Below are positions 1 through 4,878 of a stretch of DNA of 4,878 nt, one piece after another. The DNA comes from a virus (Duplodnaviria > Heunggongvirae > Uroviricota > Caudoviricetes), in the IMG/VR virus record IMGVR_UViG_2558860274_000011, positions 1 to 4,878 of that record. One strand, written 5' to 3'. Position numbers and translations under genes: made by a program. Below the pieces are notes generated by a model that was not told the DNA's origin, ran no database searches, and saw nothing but the letters and a program-made list of their open reading frames with translations. The stretch's first letter is position 1. Every line of letters starts with the position of its first letter.

Positions 1-914
1 GCTGCGTGAGCAGTACGGGGTCGGACCGCTATGCAGCGAACTGCATATTGCCCCGTCAACGTATTACCACTGTCAGCAACAGCGACATCATCCGGATAAA
101 CGCAGTGCCCGTGCGCAGCGCGATGACTGGCTGAAGAAAGAGATACTGCGCGTATACGATGGGAATCATCAGGTATACGGTGTGCGTAAAGTCTGGCGTC
201 AGTTGTTACGGGAAGGAATCAGGGTAGCCAGATGTACAGTGGCGCGCCTCATGGCGGTTATGGGACTTGCCGGTGTTCTCCGGGGTAAAAAGGTCCGTAC
301 GACCATCAGCCGGAAAACCGTTGCCGCAGGCGACCGCGTAAACCGTCAGTTCGTGGCAGAACGACCTGACCAGCTGTGGGTGGCTGATTTTACTTACGTC
401 AGCACATGGCAGGGCTTCGTCTATGTGGCGTTCATCATTGATGTGTTTGCCGGATACATTGTGGGGTGGCGGGTCTCATCGTCCACGGAGACGACATTCG
501 TGCTGGATGCACTGGAGCAGGCGTTATGGGCCCGTCGACCGTCCGGCACGGTCCATCACAGTGATAAAGGTTCTCAGTATGTATCGCTGGCCTACACACA
601 GCGGCTTAAGGAAGCCGGATTACTGGCATCAACAGGAAGTACAGGCGACTCGTATGACAACGCGATGGCGGAGAGCATCAATGGTCTTTACAAAGCGGAG
701 GTAATACACCGTAAGAGCTGGAAAAACCGTGCAGAAGTGGAACTGGCCACACTCACGTGGGTGGACTGGTATAACAATCGACGATTGCTGGAAAGGCTGG
801 GCCATACTCCTCCGGCAGAAGCAGAAAAAGCTTATTATGCTTCCATCGGAAACGATGATCTGGCAGCCTGAGTTCACAGATAAAACACTCTCCAGGAAAC
901 CCGGGGCGGTTCAT
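1..914 (+). mobile_element. 3' portion of an IS3-family insertion sequence (IS629/IS1203/IS3411-like by recollection), truncated by the window start
   Basis: The transposase OrfB frame is open from the window edge to 871. It is followed by about 40 bp ending ...CCCGGGGCGGTTCA at 914, consistent with an IS3-family terminal inverted repeat (5'-TG...CA-3' ends). Sequence character changes immediately after 914. The exact end and subgroup are from memory and not verified; the left end is outside the window. Confidence 0.8.
2..871 (+). CDS. IS3-family transposase OrfB (DDE integrase-type catalytic subunit), 5'-partial at window edge
   Basis: The frame is continuous from position 2 (LREQYGVGPLCSELHIAPSTYYHC...) into the listed ORF 182..871. 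Translation contains the DDE/RNase-H-fold signatures typical of IS3 OrfB: WVADFTYV (first D), HSDKGSQY (second D) and DSYDNAMAESINGLYK (E). Stop codon at 869-871. OrfA and the frameshift site would lie upstream of the window. Confidence 0.95.
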   Translation: MREQYGVGPLCSELHIAPSTYYHCQQQRHHPDKRSARAQRDDWLKKEILRVYDGNHQVYGVRKVWRQLLREGIRVARCTVARLMAVMGLAGVLRGKKVRTTISRKTVAAGDRVNRQFVAERPDQLWVADFTYVSTWQGFVYVAFIIDVFAGYIVGWRVSSSTETTFVLDALEQALWARRPSGTVHHSDKGSQYVSLAYTQRLKEAGLLASTGSTGDSYDNAMAESINGLYKAEVIHRKSWKNRAEVELATLTWVDWYNNRRLLERLGHTPPAEAEKAYYASIGNDDLAA

Positions 915-1151
915 TGAATCTTATCCAGGCAATTGTGCGTGTCCGTATAATCATGCAAGGAATGGTAGTAGATGTGGTGGACGCAGTGCATATAGCCGTA
1001 CTGGAGGGTATGACGTGGTATGTTATGAAAGTGATGTTACCGATGAAATGATCCGGCAATGGAAGCAGGAGAATGCTGAGTAATCTCTTTTAACTGATTT
1101 GTTGTGCGAGCATTATGTGCAGTTAACGCCTCACTAGCTAGTGAGAGTTCC

Positions 1152-1186
1152 AAAAAGAAACCCCGCAGTTTTTACGCTGCGGGGTT
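1152..1186 (-). terminator. Rho-independent terminator, probably for the hok transcript; usable in both directions
   Basis: Perfect 8-bp GC-rich stem CCCCGCAG (1161-1168) / CTGCGGGG (1177-1184), extendable to 10 bp with flanking A-T pairs. On the minus strand the hairpin is followed by UUUCUUUUU (complement of 1152-1160). On the plus strand it is followed by TTGTTATT, a weaker U-tract. It lies about 90 nt downstream of the hok stop codon. Confidence 0.6.
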
Positions 1187-1272
1187 GTTATTCATGCCTA
1201 TGAGATAGGGTGCCTTATCGGCCTTACCCTAGCAACCGATTGACGGGGAGTTGCCTCCCCGTCGCGGTTTCC

Positions 1273-1413
1273 TTACTGCTTACACTGTAAGAACGCCGCA
1301 AACTCCGCTCCCCAGAAGCTCATCCGTATTTCACACAGCGAACCGTGCAGCATCCAGATGATGAGGATTACCGTCACGCAGAACGTGATGGCCGTAAGCG
1401 ATTTTTGCGACAT
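1273..1413 (-). CDS. hok: Hok/Gef-family type I toxin (small membrane-depolarising peptide), 46 aa
   Basis: Hand translation of the minus strand from ATG (complement of 1411-1413) to TAA (complement of 1273-1275) gives MSQKSLTAITFCVTVILIIWMLHGSLCEIRMSFWGAEFAAFLQCKQ. It has an N-terminal hydrophobic helix followed by the SLCEI motif and a C-terminal AAFLxCK, closely resembling Hok-family peptides as I recall them (HokA-like ...WMIRDSLCEL...ELAAFLACK). A GGAG Shine-Dalgarno lies 8 nt upstream of the ATG. Not in the ORF track because it is under the length cutoff. Confidence 0.8.
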   Translation of the reverse strand: MSQKSLTAITFCVTVILIIWMLHGSLCEIRMSFWGAEFAAFLQCKQ

Positions 1414-1543
1414 AGCGCTTGCTCCTTTGTTGGAGAGGCGCTAACCTATCACTTGCTAAGGTTAGACGGTTAGGGCCTCGGTTAAACAGAAATGTTTTCC
1501 GGGGCCTTTCCACATCTGGCCTTCGGGTATTCCCTCCGACCAT
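1331..1543 (-). CDS. Possible mok-like overlapping reading frame (modulator of killing) covering the hok start
   Basis: A 70-codon frame starting at ATG (complement of 1541-1543) overlaps the first 83 nt of hok in a different frame and stops inside hok. This is the layout expected for mok in hok/sok-type loci, where hok translation is coupled to mok. There is no convincing Shine-Dalgarno at this ATG, and the true start could be an internal GTG. The protein sequence itself is uninformative. Confidence 0.3.
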   Translation of the reverse strand: MVGGNTRRPDVERPRKTFLFNRGPNRLTLASDRLAPLQQRSKRYVAKIAYGHHVLRDGNPHHLDAARFAV

Positions 1544-1603
1544 CAGCCGAAAGGCACCCGCGCGTAATCTATCGCTTTTTTGTTACTCCGGCAATTCTGC
1601 TTG

Positions 1604-1864
1604 TTAATTCTGAGATAAAGGCAAACTCATCTGATTGTTTCCCCTGTGTGAAGCTGGCAGCTCATGCCACGGGATACCTTCTGAAGAGTGAACGCCGGAG
1701 GCGTGTTTTGATGTGAATTTATGGAAAGCTTCCAGTGTTGAGAAGCATACGCCGCATTCCAGATTGTTACACTGGTAATACTTTTGCCGCACGGTGTTTG
1801 AATCATTTTCCGGACGACTGGTGCGGATACGGGCAGATGCGCCACAAAGCGGACAACGGAACAT
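1604..1864 (-). CDS. ogr: Ogr/Delta-family zinc-finger late-gene transcriptional activator (P2 Ogr-like), 86 aa
   Basis: Translation MFRCPLCGASARIRTSRPENDSNTVRQKYYQCNNLECGVCF... shows the Ogr-family CxxC-N24-CxxxxC zinc-binding pattern and the ARxRTSR motif. It aligns by eye with P2 Ogr as I recall it (MFHCPLCQHAAHARTSRYITDTTKERYHQCQNVNC...). A strong GGGAGGT Shine-Dalgarno lies 5 nt upstream of the ATG. The protein is about 14 aa longer at the C-terminus than the ~72-aa family norm. Confidence 0.85.
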   Translation of the reverse strand: MFRCPLCGASARIRTSRPENDSNTVRQKYYQCNNLECGVCFSTLEAFHKFTSKHASGVHSSEGIPWHELPASHRGNNQMSLPLSQN

Positions 1865-1906
1865 AGCGACCTCCCTTAACGTGGTGCTGTCGCTATTCTA
1901 AGTTCC

Positions 1907-2344
1907 TCACTCTGTTTCCGCTATCCATTCCGGGATTTTTGCCTCAAGCTCAATCTGTGTGGTAAAGCCACTGTTATCAATGGTGTGCTCGGCTTTTGCA
2001 ATAATCCAGTCCTGATTATCAATCTCGCTTTTAAATCCTGTTACCGTGCCATGCATTTCGGGGTAGAGTTCTGCGCGTCCACGTGCCAGTGTGATGGAGA
2101 ATGATGCGGCTCCGCGTTGTAGCTGCTGCCACTTTGCCGCCGCTGCGCGTCTTGCTGCCTGCTCGTTCTGATAAGTCTTGCGTAACACAAACACATTGCC
2201 TTCCGCACCTTCCATATAATCACCTTCACGGCTGCTGCTTTTCTCCTTTTTGGGTTTTGGTGGTTTGCGGCGTTTCACGCTGACTTTTTTCTTTTTCCCG
2301 TAATTAAGATCAAGCCAGTAAGCGCGTATCGTGAAGAACTTGTT
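1907..2344 (-). pseudogene. Probable C-terminal fragment of a P2 gpD-like tail protein (prophage remnant); the N-terminal two thirds are absent
   Basis: A minus-strand open frame runs stop-to-stop from 2344 down to 1907 (about 145 codons). The track calls a GTG start at 2278. It ends 42 nt upstream of ogr, which is the conserved P2 gene order D-ogr. A full gpD is roughly 390 aa, so this is at most the C-terminal third. The assignment rests mainly on synteny, since I cannot recall the gpD sequence reliably. Confidence 0.5.
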
Positions 2345-2390
2345 TCATAGTGGTATATTGTGATCATCTAATAGCTCGTGAAATCATTTT

Positions 2391-2408
2391 GGTATCAAAA
2401 AAGATACC
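2391..2408. promoter_or_regulatory. Perfect inverted repeat GGTATC-N6-GATACC, candidate operator just upstream of the XRE regulator gene
   Basis: GGTATCaaaaaaGATACC lies 16 bp upstream of the 2424 start codon, in the divergent intergenic region between the gpD fragment and the regulator. A further TGGTAT copy sits at 2351-2356, next to a TGATCA palindrome. This is a typical arrangement for an autoregulated HTH repressor operator, but it is inferred from symmetry only. Confidence 0.3.
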
Positions 2409-2423
2409 TGTCAAGGTTTTTGT

Positions 2424-2828
2424 ATGAAAAATGATATTGGTCAGCGGTTGCGTGAGGAAAGGGAAAGATTGGGACTTAGTCAAGTTGCCATGAGCGACAT
2501 TGGTGGAGTCAAAAAGCTAACTCAGCTTAGATATGAGAAAGGAGATAGCTTTCCTGATGCTGCGTATTTGGCAGCGCTGTCTCGTTTTGGCCTTGATGTT
2601 CAGTATGTTGTGTTGGGAATTCACTCACCTGAAACTTATAACGATGATGAGCAGGAGTTGATTACTCGCTTTCGAGCAGCTTCGTTAGATGTGAAAAACG
2701 CGGTGATTGGGGCTTTAAAAGGTGCGATCAGTGAAAAGGAAACTCAGCCATCAGGACGTGAGTTAAATATTTCTGGTGGTAATAACCGTATCGCTGGTCG
2801 TGACTATAACGAAACTAAGGGTAGGTGA
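2424..2828 (+). CDS. XRE-family (Cro/CI-type) helix-turn-helix transcriptional regulator, 134 aa; candidate immunity repressor of the element
   Basis: The N-terminal ~65 aa (IGQRLREERERLGLSQVAMSDIGGVKKLTQLRYEKGDSFPDAAYLAALSRFGLDV) matches the XRE HTH consensus architecture. AAGG lies 8 nt upstream of the ATG. It is the first gene of a same-strand operon ending in the integrase, analogous to the P2 C-int arrangement. The C-terminal tail carries the motif GGNNRIAGRDYNE. Confidence 0.85.
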   Translation: MKNDIGQRLREERERLGLSQVAMSDIGGVKKLTQLRYEKGDSFPDAAYLAALSRFGLDVQYVVLGIHSPETYNDDEQELITRFRAASLDVKNAVIGALKGAISEKETQPSGRELNISGGNNRIAGRDYNETKGR

Positions 2829-2843
2829 TAGTAGGGAGGTGAC

Positions 2844-3494
2844 ATGGCCGTCAACTCAAACGGTTCAAACAATCGCGTTGCTGGGCGTGATTTTCACGAA
2901 AAGAATATTCAGATAGAGCGATATGATGGTTCTCATACCGTCAATATCGCAATCCCTTCGAATAATGATGATGACGATCGCCCTTTGCTTAAGGCTCAGC
3001 GTAAGGAGCTAAATAGCTTGGTTGCTGCTATTGCAGAAGCTAGCAATACTGAAGCGTTTATTATTTGGCAAAAAGTACATGCGGAGATTGGTGTAGCTGG
3101 TATTGATGATATGACAGTAAATCAATATAAAACAGCGGAGAGTTTTCTGCATGCAATGCTTGAGCGATGTAAAGATCATGATGCCTGTAAGGCTCTTGTA
3201 AGTTTATTACTACGTAACAGTGAAGACTGTGGACTTCGACAAAAACTTCTGCGGTATTGCCATATCAATTTCGGTACAGGACGTTTAAACGATCTTACTC
3301 GTTCTCAGTTACAGTCTGCATTGTCGTGGTTAGAGCAACAATCGGCATCAAGCCACACAGAGAGTTCGACCTTACCAGAAGTCCGACTTCGTGCTTCAGA
3401 ATTAATCCGACTTTATCCAAAAGAAATAATATTCTTTATCTGCGTAGGGGTTTTGGTAGGCGGTGTCATTTCTAGGGCGTTTTTTAATTTGTAA
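2844..3494 (+). CDS. Hypothetical protein, 216 aa: predicted cytoplasmic domain with a single C-terminal transmembrane anchor; function unknown
   Basis: Strong Shine-Dalgarno GGGAGGT 5 nt upstream of the ATG. The C-terminal segment IIFFICVGVLVGGVISRAFF is a plausible tail-anchor transmembrane helix. An acidic DDDD patch lies near the N-terminus, which also carries the motif SNNRVAGRDFHE shared with the upstream regulator. The gene is AT-rich compared with the IS and hok regions. I recognise no family. Confidence 0.7.
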   Translation: MAVNSNGSNNRVAGRDFHEKNIQIERYDGSHTVNIAIPSNNDDDDRPLLKAQRKELNSLVAAIAEASNTEAFIIWQKVHAEIGVAGIDDMTVNQYKTAESFLHAMLERCKDHDACKALVSLLLRNSEDCGLRQKLLRYCHINFGTGRLNDLTRSQLQSALSWLEQQSASSHTESSTLPEVRLRASELIRLYPKEIIFFICVGVLVGGVISRAFFNL

Positions 3495-3523
3495 TCTTAC
3501 TTGAGCTAAATTGAGGTAATGAT

Positions 3524-3871
3524 ATGAAAGTAAAAAATGTTCAACTATTAGTTACTTTTTTATCTATGTTTTCTTTTTCCGCCGTCGCAATGCCTTTTAA
3601 AACTATTGAACGTGAGAGTTTTAATGGGGTATGGCCATTTAATACTGATGAGGTTCAATTACAGTGTCTTGATGGTAATCCTTATGTGATGAATTTTGAC
3701 GATAATAAGTTATATGCACTTACAGGTTTGGCTCGAATAAAAGGTAAAACATTTGGTGCGTTACCGTTAGATAACAATAATCCATTTTGGCTAGATAATG
3801 ATGCCGCCCCAGGGTTAAAAAAGAGTCTGGGGGATGTCACTAAGGCTGCATTTGATTTATGTGATAAGTAA
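3524..3871 (+). CDS. Hypothetical secreted or periplasmic protein, 115 aa, with an N-terminal Sec signal peptide; function unknown
   Basis: Shine-Dalgarno GAGGT 6 nt upstream of the ATG. The N-terminus MKVKNVQLLVTFLSMFSFSAVA has a basic n-region, a hydrophobic core and an AVA cleavage motif. The mature part has two Cys (possible disulfide) and is rich in N, D and P. The gene is markedly AT-rich. No family recognised. Confidence 0.75.
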   Translation: MKVKNVQLLVTFLSMFSFSAVAMPFKTIERESFNGVWPFNTDEVQLQCLDGNPYVMNFDDNKLYALTGLARIKGKTFGALPLDNNNPFWLDNDAAPGLKKSLGDVTKAAFDLCDK

Positions 3872-3876
3872 CTAAA

Positions 3877-4878
3877 ATGTCGGTTCGTAAGATTCCATCA
3901 GGTAAATGGCTTTGCGAATGTTATCCCTACGGGGCATCGGGAAAACGCATTCGTAAACAGTTTGCGACAAAAAGTGAGGCGCTCTCTTATGAGCGCCGTT
4001 TAATGAATAGTAGAGTTGGAGACGAGTTTCAAGATGGTTCTGGTCCTCGTCTTTCTGAGTTGATTGCTCGTTGGTTTGAGATGTACGGTAAAACCTTGTC
4101 CTCTGGTGCAGAGCGCAAAGTCAAACTTGAGGCGATTTGTTCCAGGCTGGGAGATCCATTTGCTTCTCAGTTTGACAAAAATATGTTTGCTACTTATCGG
4201 GAAAGAAGGCTATCAGGAGAATGGAATCCCAAGGGGAAGAAAAAACTTAGTGAAGCAACCGTTAATCGCGAGCAGTCATATCTACATGCTGTTTTTGCCG
4301 AACTGAAGCGCCTTGGGGAGTGGTCTGGTGAAAACCCCCTGACTGGTATTCGCAAGTTTCGTGAGGAAGAAAAGGAACTGGCGTTTCTGTATGTAGATGA
4401 GATTGAACGCCTTCTGATTGCGTGTGATGAGTCACGGAATAAAGATTTGGGGGTTGTTGTCCGTATTGGGCTTGCGACGGGTGCTCGGTGGAGTGAAGCA
4501 GAAGGATTAAAGCAATCTCAAGTACTGCCCGGTCGAATCACATTTGTTAAAACTAAAGGAAAGAAGAACCGCACTGTACCGATTTCACCTCAATTGCAGG
4601 CTATGCTTCCTAAAAAACGAGGAGCGCTATTTTCACCATGTTATGAGGCTTTTGACGCTGCAATTAAGAGAGCGAAGATCGAGCTTCCTGATGGGCAATT
4701 AACTCATGTGCTACGTCACACGTTTGCCAGTCATTTTATGATGCGGGGCGGAAATATTCTTGTGTTGCAAAAAATACTGGGGCATAGCGATATAAAAATG
4801 ACTATGCGTTATGCGCATTTTGCTCCAGGTCATTTAGAGGCTGCTGTTGAATTGAACCCTTTTGACAATAGAGGGTAA
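3877..4878 (+). CDS. int: Tyrosine site-specific recombinase / phage integrase, P2-Int-like, 333 aa, complete (stop at window end)
   Basis: Translation shows the catalytic signature of tyrosine recombinases: LATGARWSEA (Arg), HVLRHTFASHF (HxxR) and MTMRYAHFAP (Tyr nucleophile). It also has blocks I recall from P2 Int (GKRIRKQF..SEA, RITFVKTKGKKNRTVPIS, GGNILVLQKILGH). The ATG is 5 nt after the upstream stop, suggesting translational coupling. TAA at 4876-4878. Confidence 0.95.
   Translation: MSVRKIPSGKWLCECYPYGASGKRIRKQFATKSEALSYERRLMNSRVGDEFQDGSGPRLSELIARWFEMYGKTLSSGAERKVKLEAICSRLGDPFASQFDKNMFATYRERRLSGEWNPKGKKKLSEATVNREQSYLHAVFAELKRLGEWSGENPLTGIRKFREEEKELAFLYVDEIERLLIACDESRNKDLGVVVRIGLATGARWSEAEGLKQSQVLPGRITFVKTKGKKNRTVPISPQLQAMLPKKRGALFSPCYEAFDAAIKRAKIELPDGQLTHVLRHTFASHFMMRGGNILVLQKILGHSDIKMTMRYAHFAPGHLEAAVELNPFDNRG

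What the first reader, a model, noticed from the sequence alone, without database searches (positions are those of the whole stretch)
2844..3871. Two uncharacterised cargo genes between the repressor and the integrase: candidate prophage-encoded exclusion or defence module
Between the XRE regulator and the integrase lie two genes with good ribosome-binding sites and no family I can recognise. One is a 216-aa protein with a soluble N-terminal domain and a single C-terminal membrane anchor. The other is a 115-aa protein with a clear Sec signal peptide. Both are visibly more AT-rich than the IS and hok regions. The C-int interval of P2-type elements normally has no such genes, so they behave like inserted morons expressed from the repressor promoter in the lysogenic state. 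A membrane-anchored protein paired with a periplasmic partner under repressor control is the kind of arrangement seen in superinfection-exclusion and abortive-infection systems. The function itself is pure inference.
Basis: partly seen in the sequence, partly recalled or inferred. Interest (0 to 1): 0.75.

Follow-up and report, generated by a model that had tools for sequence, protein, structure and literature searches.

The report
Prophage repressor's membrane partner plus cargo
The two genes are real but are not a pair: the first encodes a membrane-anchored protein that always accompanies this type of prophage repressor and carries a copy of the repressor's tail motif, while the second is one of many interchangeable cargo genes encoding a small secreted protein.

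Summary
Both ORFs exist exactly as described (2844-3494, 216 aa, C-terminal membrane anchor; 3524-3871, 115 aa, signal peptide), and both are AT-rich. Neither is family-less. The first has an Flk_N domain (PF27202, phrog_5825). The second is a DUF2511/YebY protein with the conserved Cys48-Cys113 pair.

The window is a remnant of a P2-like prophage at yecA with a 32.8-kb internal deletion. 511 of 5426 complete E. coli genomes carry the two genes.

The "two-gene defence module" reading fails. In 80 of 80 viral contigs, and in every other locus examined, the Flk_N gene directly follows the repressor gene. The gene after it varies among about 15 unrelated families, mostly exported, lipoprotein or membrane proteins. 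No PADLOC model matches.

The main new observation is a matched motif. The repressor's C-terminal tail (NISGGNNRIAGRDYNE) is repeated at the N-terminus of the Flk_N protein (NSNGSNNRVAGRDFHE). In Mu-like and other P2-like prophages the motif differs, yet it again matches within each pair. A repressor homologue without the tail has no Flk_N neighbour.

I infer a repressor/membrane-partner immunity cassette coupled through this motif, followed by a cargo slot. The mechanism is untested.

The parts
2326..2328 (.). Deletion junction of the prophage remnant. A 3-bp microhomology joins the middle of gpD to the region 98 nt upstream of the repressor gene.
   Evidence: blastn of the window against the intact prophage L026: window 912-2328 = L026 2691-4107, and window 2326-4878 = L026 36949-39501.
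2386..2414 (-). Promoter-like site (TTGACA-17-CAAAAT) pointing leftward. It is in the position of the early lytic promoter (the Pe equivalent), whose operon is deleted here.
   Evidence: Consensus scan. The role is inferred by analogy with the annotated P2 Pe/Pc arrangement.
2424..2828 (+). XRE-family HTH repressor (134 aa) at the position of P2 C. It consists of an HTH, a helical segment, a Gly/Ser/Ala-rich linker and a C-terminal motif.
   Evidence: Pfam HTH_31/HTH_3, NCBIfam RstR/DicA (weak) and phrog_8. It lies at the same position in intact prophages.
2763..2813 (+). Tail motif of the repressor, LNISGGNNRIAGRDYNE, followed by TKGR and a stop.
   Evidence: The motif is conserved in repressor homologues.
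2826..2843 (+). Three consecutive stop codons (TGA TAG TAG), then GGAGGTGAC carrying the Shine-Dalgarno sequence. The repressor and the next gene are in the same reading frame.
   Evidence: Sequence and six-frame context 'KGR***GGDMAVNS'.
2844..3494 (+). Flk_N-domain tail-anchored inner-membrane protein (216 aa), the constant neighbour of the repressor.
   Evidence: phrog_5825 E 4e-103 and NCBIfam Flk N-terminal region E 9e-16. Homologues carry PF27202 Flk_N. Contexts.
2850..2900 (+). N-terminal copy of the motif, VNSNGSNNRVAGRDFHE.
   Evidence: 10 of 17 residues are identical to the repressor tail, and 6 of those 10 use different codons. The score is 62, against 20.4 +/- 4.4 for shuffles. pLDDT is below 50 in the monomer model.
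2979..3359 (+). Helical Flk_N domain (residues about 46-172), cytoplasmic.
   Evidence: AlphaFold2 pLDDT 83-93 with five helices. It aligns to Flk residues 20-149. No solved relative was found.
3417..3491 (+). C-terminal transmembrane tail anchor (residues 192-216).
   Evidence: Hydropathy, model helix 192-215. The homologues end at the hydrophobic segment.
3524..3871 (+). Secreted DUF2511/YebY-family protein (115 aa). It is variable cargo in the slot before int.
   Evidence: Pfam PF10709 28.3 bits (cut-off 21). phrog_2950 E 2e-39. Profile against PDB: YebY 7n0j E 4e-6, MlbQ 2mvo E 0.13. Slot variability.
3524..3589 (+). Signal peptide (residues 1-22, ...SAVA|MPF).
   Evidence: Sequence and hydropathy. 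YebY family members are periplasmic (PMC8689200).
3665..3667 (+). Cys48 codon. It is one half of the conserved disulfide pair, whose other half is Cys113 at 3860-3862.
   Evidence: Both Cys are invariant in 14 homologues. The same numbering, Cys48-Cys113, forms the disulfide in E. coli YebY.
3877..4878 (+). P2-type tyrosine integrase, the last gene of the lysogenic unit. The attachment site lies next to yecA in intact lysogens.
   Evidence: Pfam Int_N and Phage_integrase. Contexts.

Best explanation
The interval holds two unrelated things.

(1) The 216-aa gene is the fixed second gene of a two-gene immunity cassette, repressor followed by partner. This cassette is shared by a lineage of P2-like prophages and by Mu-like prophages. 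Its product sits on the cytoplasmic face of the inner membrane, held by a C-terminal tail anchor. It exposes a helical Flk_N domain and a flexible N-terminal peptide of 17-25 residues that copies the C-terminal tail of the repressor.

I infer that the two proteins are physically coupled through this shared Gly/Asn-rich motif. The coupling could be homotypic beta-strand association of the two copies. Alternatively, the Flk_N domain could bind either copy. In both cases the partner would tether, buffer or switch the repressor at the membrane and so tune maintenance or release of lysogeny.

(2) The 115-aa gene is interchangeable cargo in a slot between this cassette and int. Here the slot holds a periplasmic YebY-fold protein, co-expressed in the lysogen. 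It most likely acts on the cell envelope (lysogenic conversion or exclusion).

What is shown: gene order, conservation, topology, family membership, and the matched and co-varying motif. What is inferred: physical interaction, the direction of regulation, and the cargo's function.
For: - Adjacency. The order repressor then Flk_N gene holds in 80 of 80 IMG/VR loci and in 9 of 9 species genomes. It also holds in Klebsiella, E. coli and Erwinia and in Mu-like contigs. It holds again in Gilliamella and Pectobacterium.
- Intergenic distance. The gap is 15 nt in this window and 9-18 nt in the other class A loci read. In the other loci it is 1-3 nt or a 4-nt overlap, with two wider gaps of 32 and 66 nt.
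- Motif match in this window. 10 of 17 residues are identical. The score is 62, against 20.4 +/- 4.4 in 3000 shuffles, none of which reached it. The motif occurs only twice in the 40-kb intact prophage.
- Concerted evolution. The two copies within one genome score 37-67. Orthologous tails across the two motif classes score only 13-32. Over 8 further pairs, cognate pairing exceeds all but 0.36% of permutations.
- Not gene conversion. Six of the 10 identical residues use different codons.
- Phyletic link. A tail-less repressor homologue has no Flk_N neighbour.
- The motif as a tag. Extra small proteins in Mu-like lysogeny operons start with the same motif.
- Topology..
- Cargo slot. About 15 unrelated families follow the Flk_N gene, most with a signal peptide, lipobox or transmembrane segment. 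The cargo gene has the lowest GC, 0.348.
- YebY family membership..
Against: - No experiment or complex prediction shows that the two proteins touch.
- No fused repressor-Flk_N protein was found among the 120 best repressor homologues.
- The monomer model leaves the motif disordered. That fits a binding peptide but proves nothing.
- Within the second motif class, the cognate partner is the single best match in only 2 of 8 rows. Specificity is therefore at the level of motif classes and sub-classes, not of individual phages.
- The identity of the XRE protein as the immunity repressor rests on position and family, not on a test.
- Two loci have another gene between repressor and partner: L011 (a YebY gene) and L023 (an 88-aa ORF).
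Confidence: 0.5

Rival explanations
1. The membrane protein and the periplasmic protein form a two-component superinfection-exclusion or abortive-infection module carried as cargo.
For: - Both genes are in the lysogenic unit and are AT-rich.
- Prophage operons next to repressors often carry exclusion genes (general knowledge, for example lambda rexAB).
- One related locus has a TIR-domain gene two genes downstream of the Flk_N gene.
Against: - The pair is not conserved. The Flk_N gene has at least 15 different downstream neighbours, and the YebY gene can sit upstream of it.
- There are no PADLOC hits.
- The tail-anchored protein has no periplasmic part that could meet a periplasmic partner.
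- The Flk_N gene is tied to the repressor, not to the cargo.
Confidence: 0.05
2. The Flk_N protein alone is a membrane-located exclusion or host-modulating factor, acting like chromosomal Flk, which blocks an export gate from the cytoplasmic side. Under this view the shared motif is only a common recognition tag for a third party, such as a protease, a chaperone or an antirepressor, and not a contact between the two proteins.
For: - The protein is homologous to the Flk N-terminal region.
- Flk is a cytoplasmic, C-terminally anchored inhibitor of the flagellar type III secretion switch (PMC13344023).
- The same tag occurs on further small proteins in Mu-like operons. This fits a shared reader of the tag.
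- Some related prophages encode a 'Derepression'-family protein.
Against: - Hosts such as Klebsiella carry the cassette in hundreds of contigs although they lack flagella (general knowledge). The Flk target itself is therefore unlikely.
- A third-party reader does not by itself explain the strict adjacency to the repressor or the tight translational coupling.
- No candidate reader was identified.
Confidence: 0.22
3. The matched motif is a relic of gene fission or duplication at the gene boundary and has no present function. The Flk_N gene is simply an old, stably linked passenger.
For: The two genes are in the same reading frame in the window and in two related lineages, separated only by stop codons.
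Against: - The motif is retained in both proteins down to about 40% overall identity.
- It has changed in parallel in both copies between lineages.
- Synonymous differences rule out recent copying.
- In other lineages the genes overlap out of frame.
- A tail-less repressor lacks the partner.
Confidence: 0.05

Closest known systems
Flk (Fluke/RflH) of Salmonella and E. coli
   Same: It shares a homologous N-terminal helical domain (NCBIfam PRK10715 region 20-149, E 9e-16; Pfam Flk_N). The topology is also the same: a cytoplasmic protein held by a C-terminal membrane anchor.
   Different: - It is about 120 residues shorter.
- It carries an N-terminal Gly/Asn-rich motif that Flk proteins lack.
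- It is encoded in prophage immunity regions next to a repressor.
- Its score is far below the equivalog cut-off (58 against 353 bits).
- It is common in non-flagellated hosts.
[quoted passage not shown]
   Same: It passes the Pfam DUF2511 threshold. It has a signal peptide and the invariant Trp37 and Cys48-Cys113 pair. Its length is the same.
   Different: - Identity to YebY is only about 25-30% in the printed alignment.
- There are no copper genes nearby. The gene is prophage-borne and AT-rich.
- The JBC paper noted, without follow-up, yebY homologues between a recombinase gene and a phage repressor gene.
Amyloid-signalling gene pairs (Bell/NLR BASS motifs; Bab/Agp BASS11 in E. coli prophage hotspots)
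   Same: The defining genomic signature is present. A short matching motif lies at the C-terminus of the first protein and at the N-terminus of the protein encoded by the adjacent, collinear, closely spaced gene (searches compared).
   Different: - The domains are an HTH repressor and an Flk_N tail-anchored protein, not a pore-forming effector and an NLR/TPR sensor.
- The motif family is not one of those described.
- Amyloid formation was not tested.
Repressor-inactivating partners that act by sequestration or aggregation (RstC on CTX-phi RstR; Qtip on the VP882 repressor; Tum on 186 CI). Recalled from memory and not checked here.
   Same: A small phage protein controls a repressor through protein-protein contact. 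The repressor here has weak similarity to the RstR family.
   Different: - Here the partner is co-transcribed with the repressor in the lysogenic operon.
- It is membrane-anchored.
- It shares a sequence motif with its presumed target.
P2 C-int immunity/integration region
   Same: The layout is the same: a repressor, then the integrase on one strand, facing a cox-type early operon, with ogr and D at the other prophage end.
   Different: - P2 has no gene between C and int.
- The repressor here belongs to an unrelated XRE family.
- Two extra genes are present.

Membership tests
Pfam Flk_N (PF27202) / phrog_5825 | Significant match to the family profile over the helical domain | tested here: met
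   phrog_5825 E 4e-103, full length. Precomputed PF27202 on 118 of the 120 listed homologues and on the called genes in related loci. The local Pfam copy returned no Flk_N hit for this protein.
Flk (flagellar regulator, NCBIfam PRK10715 equivalog) | Full-length score above the curated cut-off (353 bits) | tested here: not met
   58.1 bits. Only residues 37-166 align, to Flk 20-149. The protein shares a domain with Flk and is not an Flk orthologue.
Flk (flagellar regulator) | Cytoplasmic protein with a single C-terminal membrane anchor | tested here: met
   Hydropathy and model. The Flk topology is taken from PMC13344023.
Flk (flagellar regulator) | Controls the flagellar type III secretion specificity switch | not testable with these tools
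   Needs genetics. The distribution in Klebsiella prophages argues against it (plus general knowledge that Klebsiella is non-motile).
DUF2511 / YebY (PF10709) | Score above the Pfam gathering threshold | tested here: met
   28.3 bits against a cut-off of 21, covering profile positions 2-87 of 87. The family profile hits YebY 7n0j at E 4e-6.
DUF2511 / YebY (PF10709) | Signal peptide and the two strictly conserved cysteines that form the disulfide | tested here: met
   Cys48 and Cys113 are invariant in 14 homologues. These are the same residues as in YebY.
DUF2511 / YebY (PF10709) | YebY/MlbQ fold (four-stranded sheet with helices) | tested here: inconclusive
   The AlphaFold2 model has mean pLDDT 67 from a shallow alignment. 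Foldseek against the PDB gave nothing at E <= 0.001 and did not recover 7n0j.
AZY copper operon member | Encoded with yobA (CopC) and yebZ (CopD) | tested here: not met
   The neighbours are a repressor, the Flk_N gene and an integrase.
Amyloid-signalling gene pair (BASS type) | Matching motif of at least 15 residues at the C-terminus of protein 1 and the N-terminus of the adjacent, collinear protein 2, with a very short intergenic distance | tested here: met
   17-24-residue matches in most of the pairs examined; two gave only 13-residue segments. The gap is 15 nt here and mostly 1-3 nt or a 4-nt overlap elsewhere. The criterion is as stated in 10.1101/2020.01.06.895854.
Amyloid-signalling gene pair (BASS type) | Partners are a membrane-targeting cell-death effector (Bell/HeLo-like) and an NLR, TPR or other immune sensor | tested here: not met
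   The partners are an XRE HTH protein and an Flk_N tail-anchored protein. No NLR, Bell or PADLOC hit was found.
Amyloid-signalling gene pair (BASS type) | The motif forms amyloid fibrils and templates its partner | not testable with these tools
   Needs peptide fibrillation assays, solid-state NMR or GFP-foci assays, as in 10.1101/2024.11.07.622273.
Known anti-phage defence systems (PADLOC-DB 2.0) | Match to any defence-protein model | tested here: not met
   No family at E <= 0.1 for either protein. Among the alternative cargo proteins, only weak WYL and PDC-S48 hits were found, for the Klebsiella 288-aa protein.
Prophage moron / cargo gene | Present or absent, or replaced, at a fixed position among otherwise syntenic relatives, with deviant base composition | tested here: met
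   Met for the DUF2511 gene only: about 15 alternative families occupy the slot, and its GC is 0.348. Not met for the Flk_N gene, which is constant.

The most novel reading that the evidence does not exclude
The repressor tail and the N-terminus of its membrane-anchored partner are a cognate self-templating (amyloid- or beta-zipper-type) signalling motif. A change in the assembly state of the membrane protein would then be transmitted to the repressor by conformational templating, either inactivating it or clustering it. This would be a protein-conformation switch for lysogeny, shared by P2-like and Mu-like phages, and the first amyloid-signalling-type pair whose output is a transcription factor and not a cell-death effector.
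Probability: 0.15. Interest if true: 0.9.

Novelty: new variant of a known kind. Interest (0 to 1): 0.6.

Why it matters
About one in eleven complete E. coli genomes, including O157:H7, O111, O121 and O103 strains, carries these genes. Hundreds of Klebsiella and other Enterobacterales assemblies carry the cassette. Yet all three proteins are annotated only as hypothetical, DUF or XRE regulator.

If the repressor is coupled to a membrane-anchored partner through a shared terminal motif, this would be an undescribed way of wiring a lysis-lysogeny switch. It would possibly link the switch to the state of the membrane. It could be tested directly with motif swaps between the two classes.

The work also defines a cargo slot next to int that collects envelope proteins and at least one TIR protein. 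That slot is a practical place to look for lysogenic-conversion and exclusion functions.

Finally, it corrects the tempting reading of the two genes as one defence module.

Tried and rejected
- PADLOC scan of both proteins and of six alternative cargo proteins found nothing convincing.
- A sequence search of the PDB with the 216-aa protein and with its family profile gave no relative.
- The AlphaFold2 model of the DUF2511 protein was of low confidence, and Foldseek gave nothing. The fold claim therefore rests on sequence only.
- Search for a Rosetta-stone fusion of repressor and Flk_N protein found none among 120 repressor homologues.
- Deposited phages: only Escherichia phage 520873 carries the genes. 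There they are unannotated and frameshifted. No cultured Mu-like phage in the collection carries the second motif class.
- Rfam found no RNA family in the window at gathering thresholds.
- Literature searches for Flk with prophage, for phage repressor with amyloid, and for CP-933T/Sp13 found no description of the cassette.
- Read-through or frameshift fusion of the two genes was rejected. Three consecutive stops separate them here, and other lineages overlap out of frame.
- Gene conversion as the cause of the motif match was rejected on synonymous differences.
- The weak Pfam hits zf-P11 and ELYS for the 216-aa protein are below threshold and were ignored. Weak GemA and ORF6C hits in distant family members are kept only as leads.
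Full report
**1. What is in the window**

The six-frame ORF list and the family scans give this order:
- a partial IS3-family transposase orfB (182-871, + strand);
- a hok/gef toxin gene (1273-1413, - strand);
- ogr (1604-1864, - strand);
- the C-terminal third of tail gene D (1907-2278, - strand);
- an XRE-family HTH regulator (2424-2828, + strand);
- the two ORFs of the finding (2844-3494 and 3524-3871, + strand);
- a P2-type integrase (3877-4878, + strand).

Comparison with complete E. coli genomes shows that the two halves of the window are the two ends of one P2-like prophage. This prophage is inserted between the glyW-cysT-leuZ tRNA cluster and yecA. Window 912-2328 equals positions 2691-4107 of the intact prophage in strain UTAK-5. 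Window 2326-4878 equals positions 36949-39501. The window is therefore a remnant in which 32.8 kb has been deleted across a 3-bp microhomology. The deleted part runs from mid-D to just upstream of the repressor gene and includes the whole early lytic operon. No complete E. coli genome in the collection has this exact configuration.

**2.

- Both ORFs are present with good Shine-Dalgarno sequences.
- The 216-aa protein has one hydrophobic segment, at its very C-terminus. Its AlphaFold2 model has a confident helical domain (residues 50-172, pLDDT 83-93), a disordered first 45 residues, and a terminal helix at 192-215.
- The 115-aa protein begins with a signal peptide ending A-V-A.
- GC content is 0.413 and 0.348, against 0.545 for the IS and 0.511 for hok.
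- In P2 itself, C and int are 115 bp apart with nothing between them.
- Both proteins are conserved in many genomes.
- The 1028-bp stretch is found in 511 of 5426 complete E. coli genomes, nearly always at 99% identity or more. These include O157:H7, where the whole module is intact next to yecA.

**3. Both proteins belong to catalogued families**

The 216-aa protein:
- It matches phrog_5825 end to end (E 4e-103).
- Its residues 37-166 match the N-terminal part of the flagellar regulator Flk (E 9e-16).
- Its homologues carry Pfam PF27202, Flk_N.
- A profile search of 1.84 billion representative proteins finds only 136 relatives. About 60 are proteins of about 190-230 residues with the same layout. 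About 30 are longer Flk-type proteins, most with a C-terminal anchor. Most of the rest are soluble proteins or fragments.
- No solved structure is related by sequence or convincingly by fold.

The 115-aa protein:
- It passes the Pfam threshold for DUF2511.
- It keeps the two cysteines, Cys48 and Cys113, that form the YebY disulfide.
- My structure model of it was too poor to confirm the fold.
- The YebY paper had already remarked, in one sentence, that yebY homologues lie between a recombinase gene and a phage repressor gene in some Enterobacteriaceae.

**4. The two genes are not a pair**

I looked at the neighbourhood of homologues in several collections:
- Klebsiella, other E. coli and Erwinia;
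- nine further species;
- 80 viral contigs.

The gene for the Flk_N protein directly follows the repressor gene in 80 of 80 viral contigs and in all but one of the genome loci. The exception is Erwinia pyrifoliae L011, where the YebY gene lies between them.

The gene between the Flk_N gene and int changes from lineage to lineage:
- DUF2511 in the E. coli lineage of this window and in a few others;
- a 288-aa BRCT-domain protein in Klebsiella and Enterobacter;
- an acidic 85-96-aa DUF8087 protein;
- a 244-aa membrane protein;
- a 202-aa exported protein;
- several others, or nothing.

In Erwinia the YebY gene sits before the Flk_N gene, not after it. Over 125 loci, the next gene falls into about 15 unrelated families, most with a signal peptide, lipobox or membrane segment. 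In one Mu-like contig a lipoprotein gene and then a TIR-domain gene follow.

The DUF2511 gene is therefore cargo in a variable slot. The Flk_N gene is part of the conserved core.

**5. The matched motif**

Reading the proteins side by side shows that the last residues of the repressor are repeated at the start of the Flk_N protein:
- repressor tail: ...LNISGGNNRIAGRDYNE-TKGR;
- Flk_N protein start: M-A-VNSNGSNNRVAGRDFHE...

Ten of 17 residues are identical. The ungapped score is 62, against 20.4 +/- 4.4 for composition-preserving shuffles, none of 3000 reaching it. The motif occurs nowhere else in the 40-kb intact prophage. Six of the ten identical residues use different codons, so this is not recent copying.

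The same match is seen in all relatives down to about 40% identity (Hafnia, Arsenophonus).

More telling, the cassette also occurs in Mu-like prophages and in more distant P2-like ones. There the repressor is clearly homologous, but its tail reads, for example, KQTFHGSVGQSVAGNVTNKSGVTFNVGD. The partner then begins MSQDFHGDVGQAAAGDINNYGVSISLVD. This is a different motif, again matched within the pair.

Lineage-specific details are shared within pairs:
- QIAG..IY in Gilliamella;
- FNG...GQF...II in Pectobacterium;
- HGDVG in locus L023;
- QVF in locus L024.

Quantitatively:
- The two copies within a genome score 37-67, whereas orthologous tails of the two main classes score 13-32.
- Over eight further pairs, the cognate assignment beats all but 0.36% of permutations.
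- However, the cognate is the single best partner in only 2 of 8 rows. The matching is therefore at the level of classes and sub-classes.

Further observations:
- A repressor homologue that lacks the tail (119 aa, common in E. coli P2-like prophages at pgsA) has no Flk_N neighbour.
- In several Mu-like loci a third small protein of the same operon starts with the same motif. The motif thus behaves as a shared tag.
- In class A the genes are 9-18 nt apart. In the other loci they are mostly 1-3 nt apart or overlap by 4 nt, with two wider gaps of 32 and 66 nt.

**6. Interpretation**

What is shown:
- This is a two-gene cassette, repressor plus tail-anchored Flk_N protein.
- It is inherited together in two unrelated groups of temperate phages.
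- A terminal motif is kept matched between the two products by selection.

What I infer is that the motif couples the two proteins physically. Two forms are equally compatible with the data. In the first, the two copies associate with each other as beta strands. In the second, the Flk_N domain binds the motif, its own N-terminus competing with the repressor tail. Either way the partner would hold or switch the repressor at the inner face of the membrane.

Supporting context:
- Chromosomal Flk is itself a cytoplasmic, C-terminally anchored inhibitor that locks a membrane machine in one state. This fits a role as a membrane-located protein-protein regulator. The flagellar target cannot apply in hosts such as Klebsiella.
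- The genomic signature is exactly the criterion used to discover amyloid-signalling pairs, including the Bab/Agp system of E. coli prophage hotspots. That signature is a matching motif at the C-end of one protein and the N-end of the next, in collinear and nearly touching genes.
- The domains here are different, however, and amyloid formation is untested. I keep that reading as the novel case at a probability of about 0.15.

Alternatives that cannot be excluded:
- a common third-party reader of the tag (protease, chaperone or antirepressor);
- an exclusion function of the Flk_N protein on its own.

A non-functional relic is unlikely, given the parallel change of both copies.

**7. The cargo gene**

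The DUF2511 protein is a secreted, disulfide-bonded YebY-fold protein without the copper-operon partners. It is expressed, by position, from the lysogenic unit, and no terminator is predicted between 2424 and 3877.

The company it keeps in this slot consists of lipoproteins, exported and membrane proteins, and a TIR protein. Its nearest studied relative binds a lantibiotic. An envelope-directed lysogenic-conversion or exclusion role is therefore the most likely one, but nothing here tests it.

**8. Novelty and verdict**

- The genes are known only as hypothetical, DUF or XRE entries.
- One deposited phage carries them, unannotated.
- I found no paper describing the cassette or the motif match.
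The defence-module interpretation is only partly supported: it is plausible for the cargo gene and wrong for the pair.
- What emerges instead is a new variant of a phage immunity region, a repressor with a dedicated membrane-anchored partner that carries a copy of its tail.
- This is widespread and directly testable, but the mechanism is inferred.

Noticed in passing
window 880-2328 and 2326-4878: The window is a prophage remnant. A 32.8-kb internal deletion with a 3-bp microhomology joins mid-gpD to the repressor promoter region and removes cox and every lytic gene. The repressor, the Flk_N gene, the DUF2511 gene and int remain 100% identical to those of intact prophages. An IS3-family element ends just beyond the hok end. 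No complete E. coli genome in the collection has this configuration.
   Followed up: partly
window 2826-2846: The repressor gene and the Flk_N gene are in the same reading frame, separated by three consecutive stops (TGA TAG TAG) and three sense codons. The same frame relation holds in the Klebsiella (L003) and E. coli (L007) relatives. In Mu-like relatives, by contrast, the genes overlap out of frame.
   Followed up: partly
L109 4004-4396; L110 4304-4702; L112 4303-4695; L122 4015-4398; L107 4173-5018; L022 707-1003: In Mu-like and other loci with the cassette, a third and sometimes a fourth small ORF of the same operon begins with the same Gly/Asn-rich motif (for example MEFHGNFGQVAGGNIYNYGL...). 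The motif therefore looks like a tag shared by several proteins. The 130-aa family has no PHROG match.
   Followed up: partly
L142 2501-3632: A tail-less homologue of the repressor (119 aa, listed in 409 index blocks of the contig collection, mostly E. coli, in a P2-like prophage at pgsA) is followed by two other genes and not by an Flk_N gene. These encode a 117-aa protein with two CxxC pairs and a 140-aa coiled-coil protein. The 140-aa protein is again C-terminally membrane-anchored. A tail-anchored protein downstream of the repressor may be a recurrent theme.
   Followed up: no
L026 26879-30249 (intact prophage in strain UTAK-5): The intact prophage carries an S8-family peptidase gene and an AAA ATPase gene between the portal gene and the replication gene. 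From memory, this is the position of the P2 tin/old cargo hotspot. It looks like a separate defence-type cargo.
   Followed up: no
L001 6503-7543 (Escherichia phage 520873, NC_049344): This is the only deposited phage with these genes. It leaves both unannotated. tblastn recovers each in three pieces and the integrase is split into two CDS, which suggests frameshift errors in that record.
   Followed up: partly
cluster of window 2424-2825 (protein P0308): An 86-aa truncated form of the repressor, lacking the tail, is recorded in 142 contigs and named from E. coli O157:H7 str. EC4115. Other O157:H7 genomes have the full 134-aa gene (L139).
   Followed up: no
L007 5840-6097; L014 5657-5947; L017 5659-5904: One alternative occupant of the cargo slot is a very acidic 81-96-aa protein (DUF8087, phrog_17127) with runs of Asp and Glu. 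This is the kind of composition seen in DNA-mimic anti-restriction proteins. That resemblance is only an impression.
   Followed up: no
alignment A2 (distant Flk_N-family members): There are weak, sub-threshold Pfam hits to Mu GemA (3 of 23 members, best E 3e-4) and to the ORF6C domain of phage antirepressor-type proteins (4 of 23, best E 0.0095). There are also weak PHROG hits to Ant antirepressors. Together they hint that Flk_N belongs to a wider group of phage regulatory helical domains.
   Followed up: partly
window 1273-1413 and 1420-1600: A hok/gef toxin ORF passes the Pfam threshold, but Rfam found no Sok or other RNA family at gathering score anywhere in the window.
   Followed up: no
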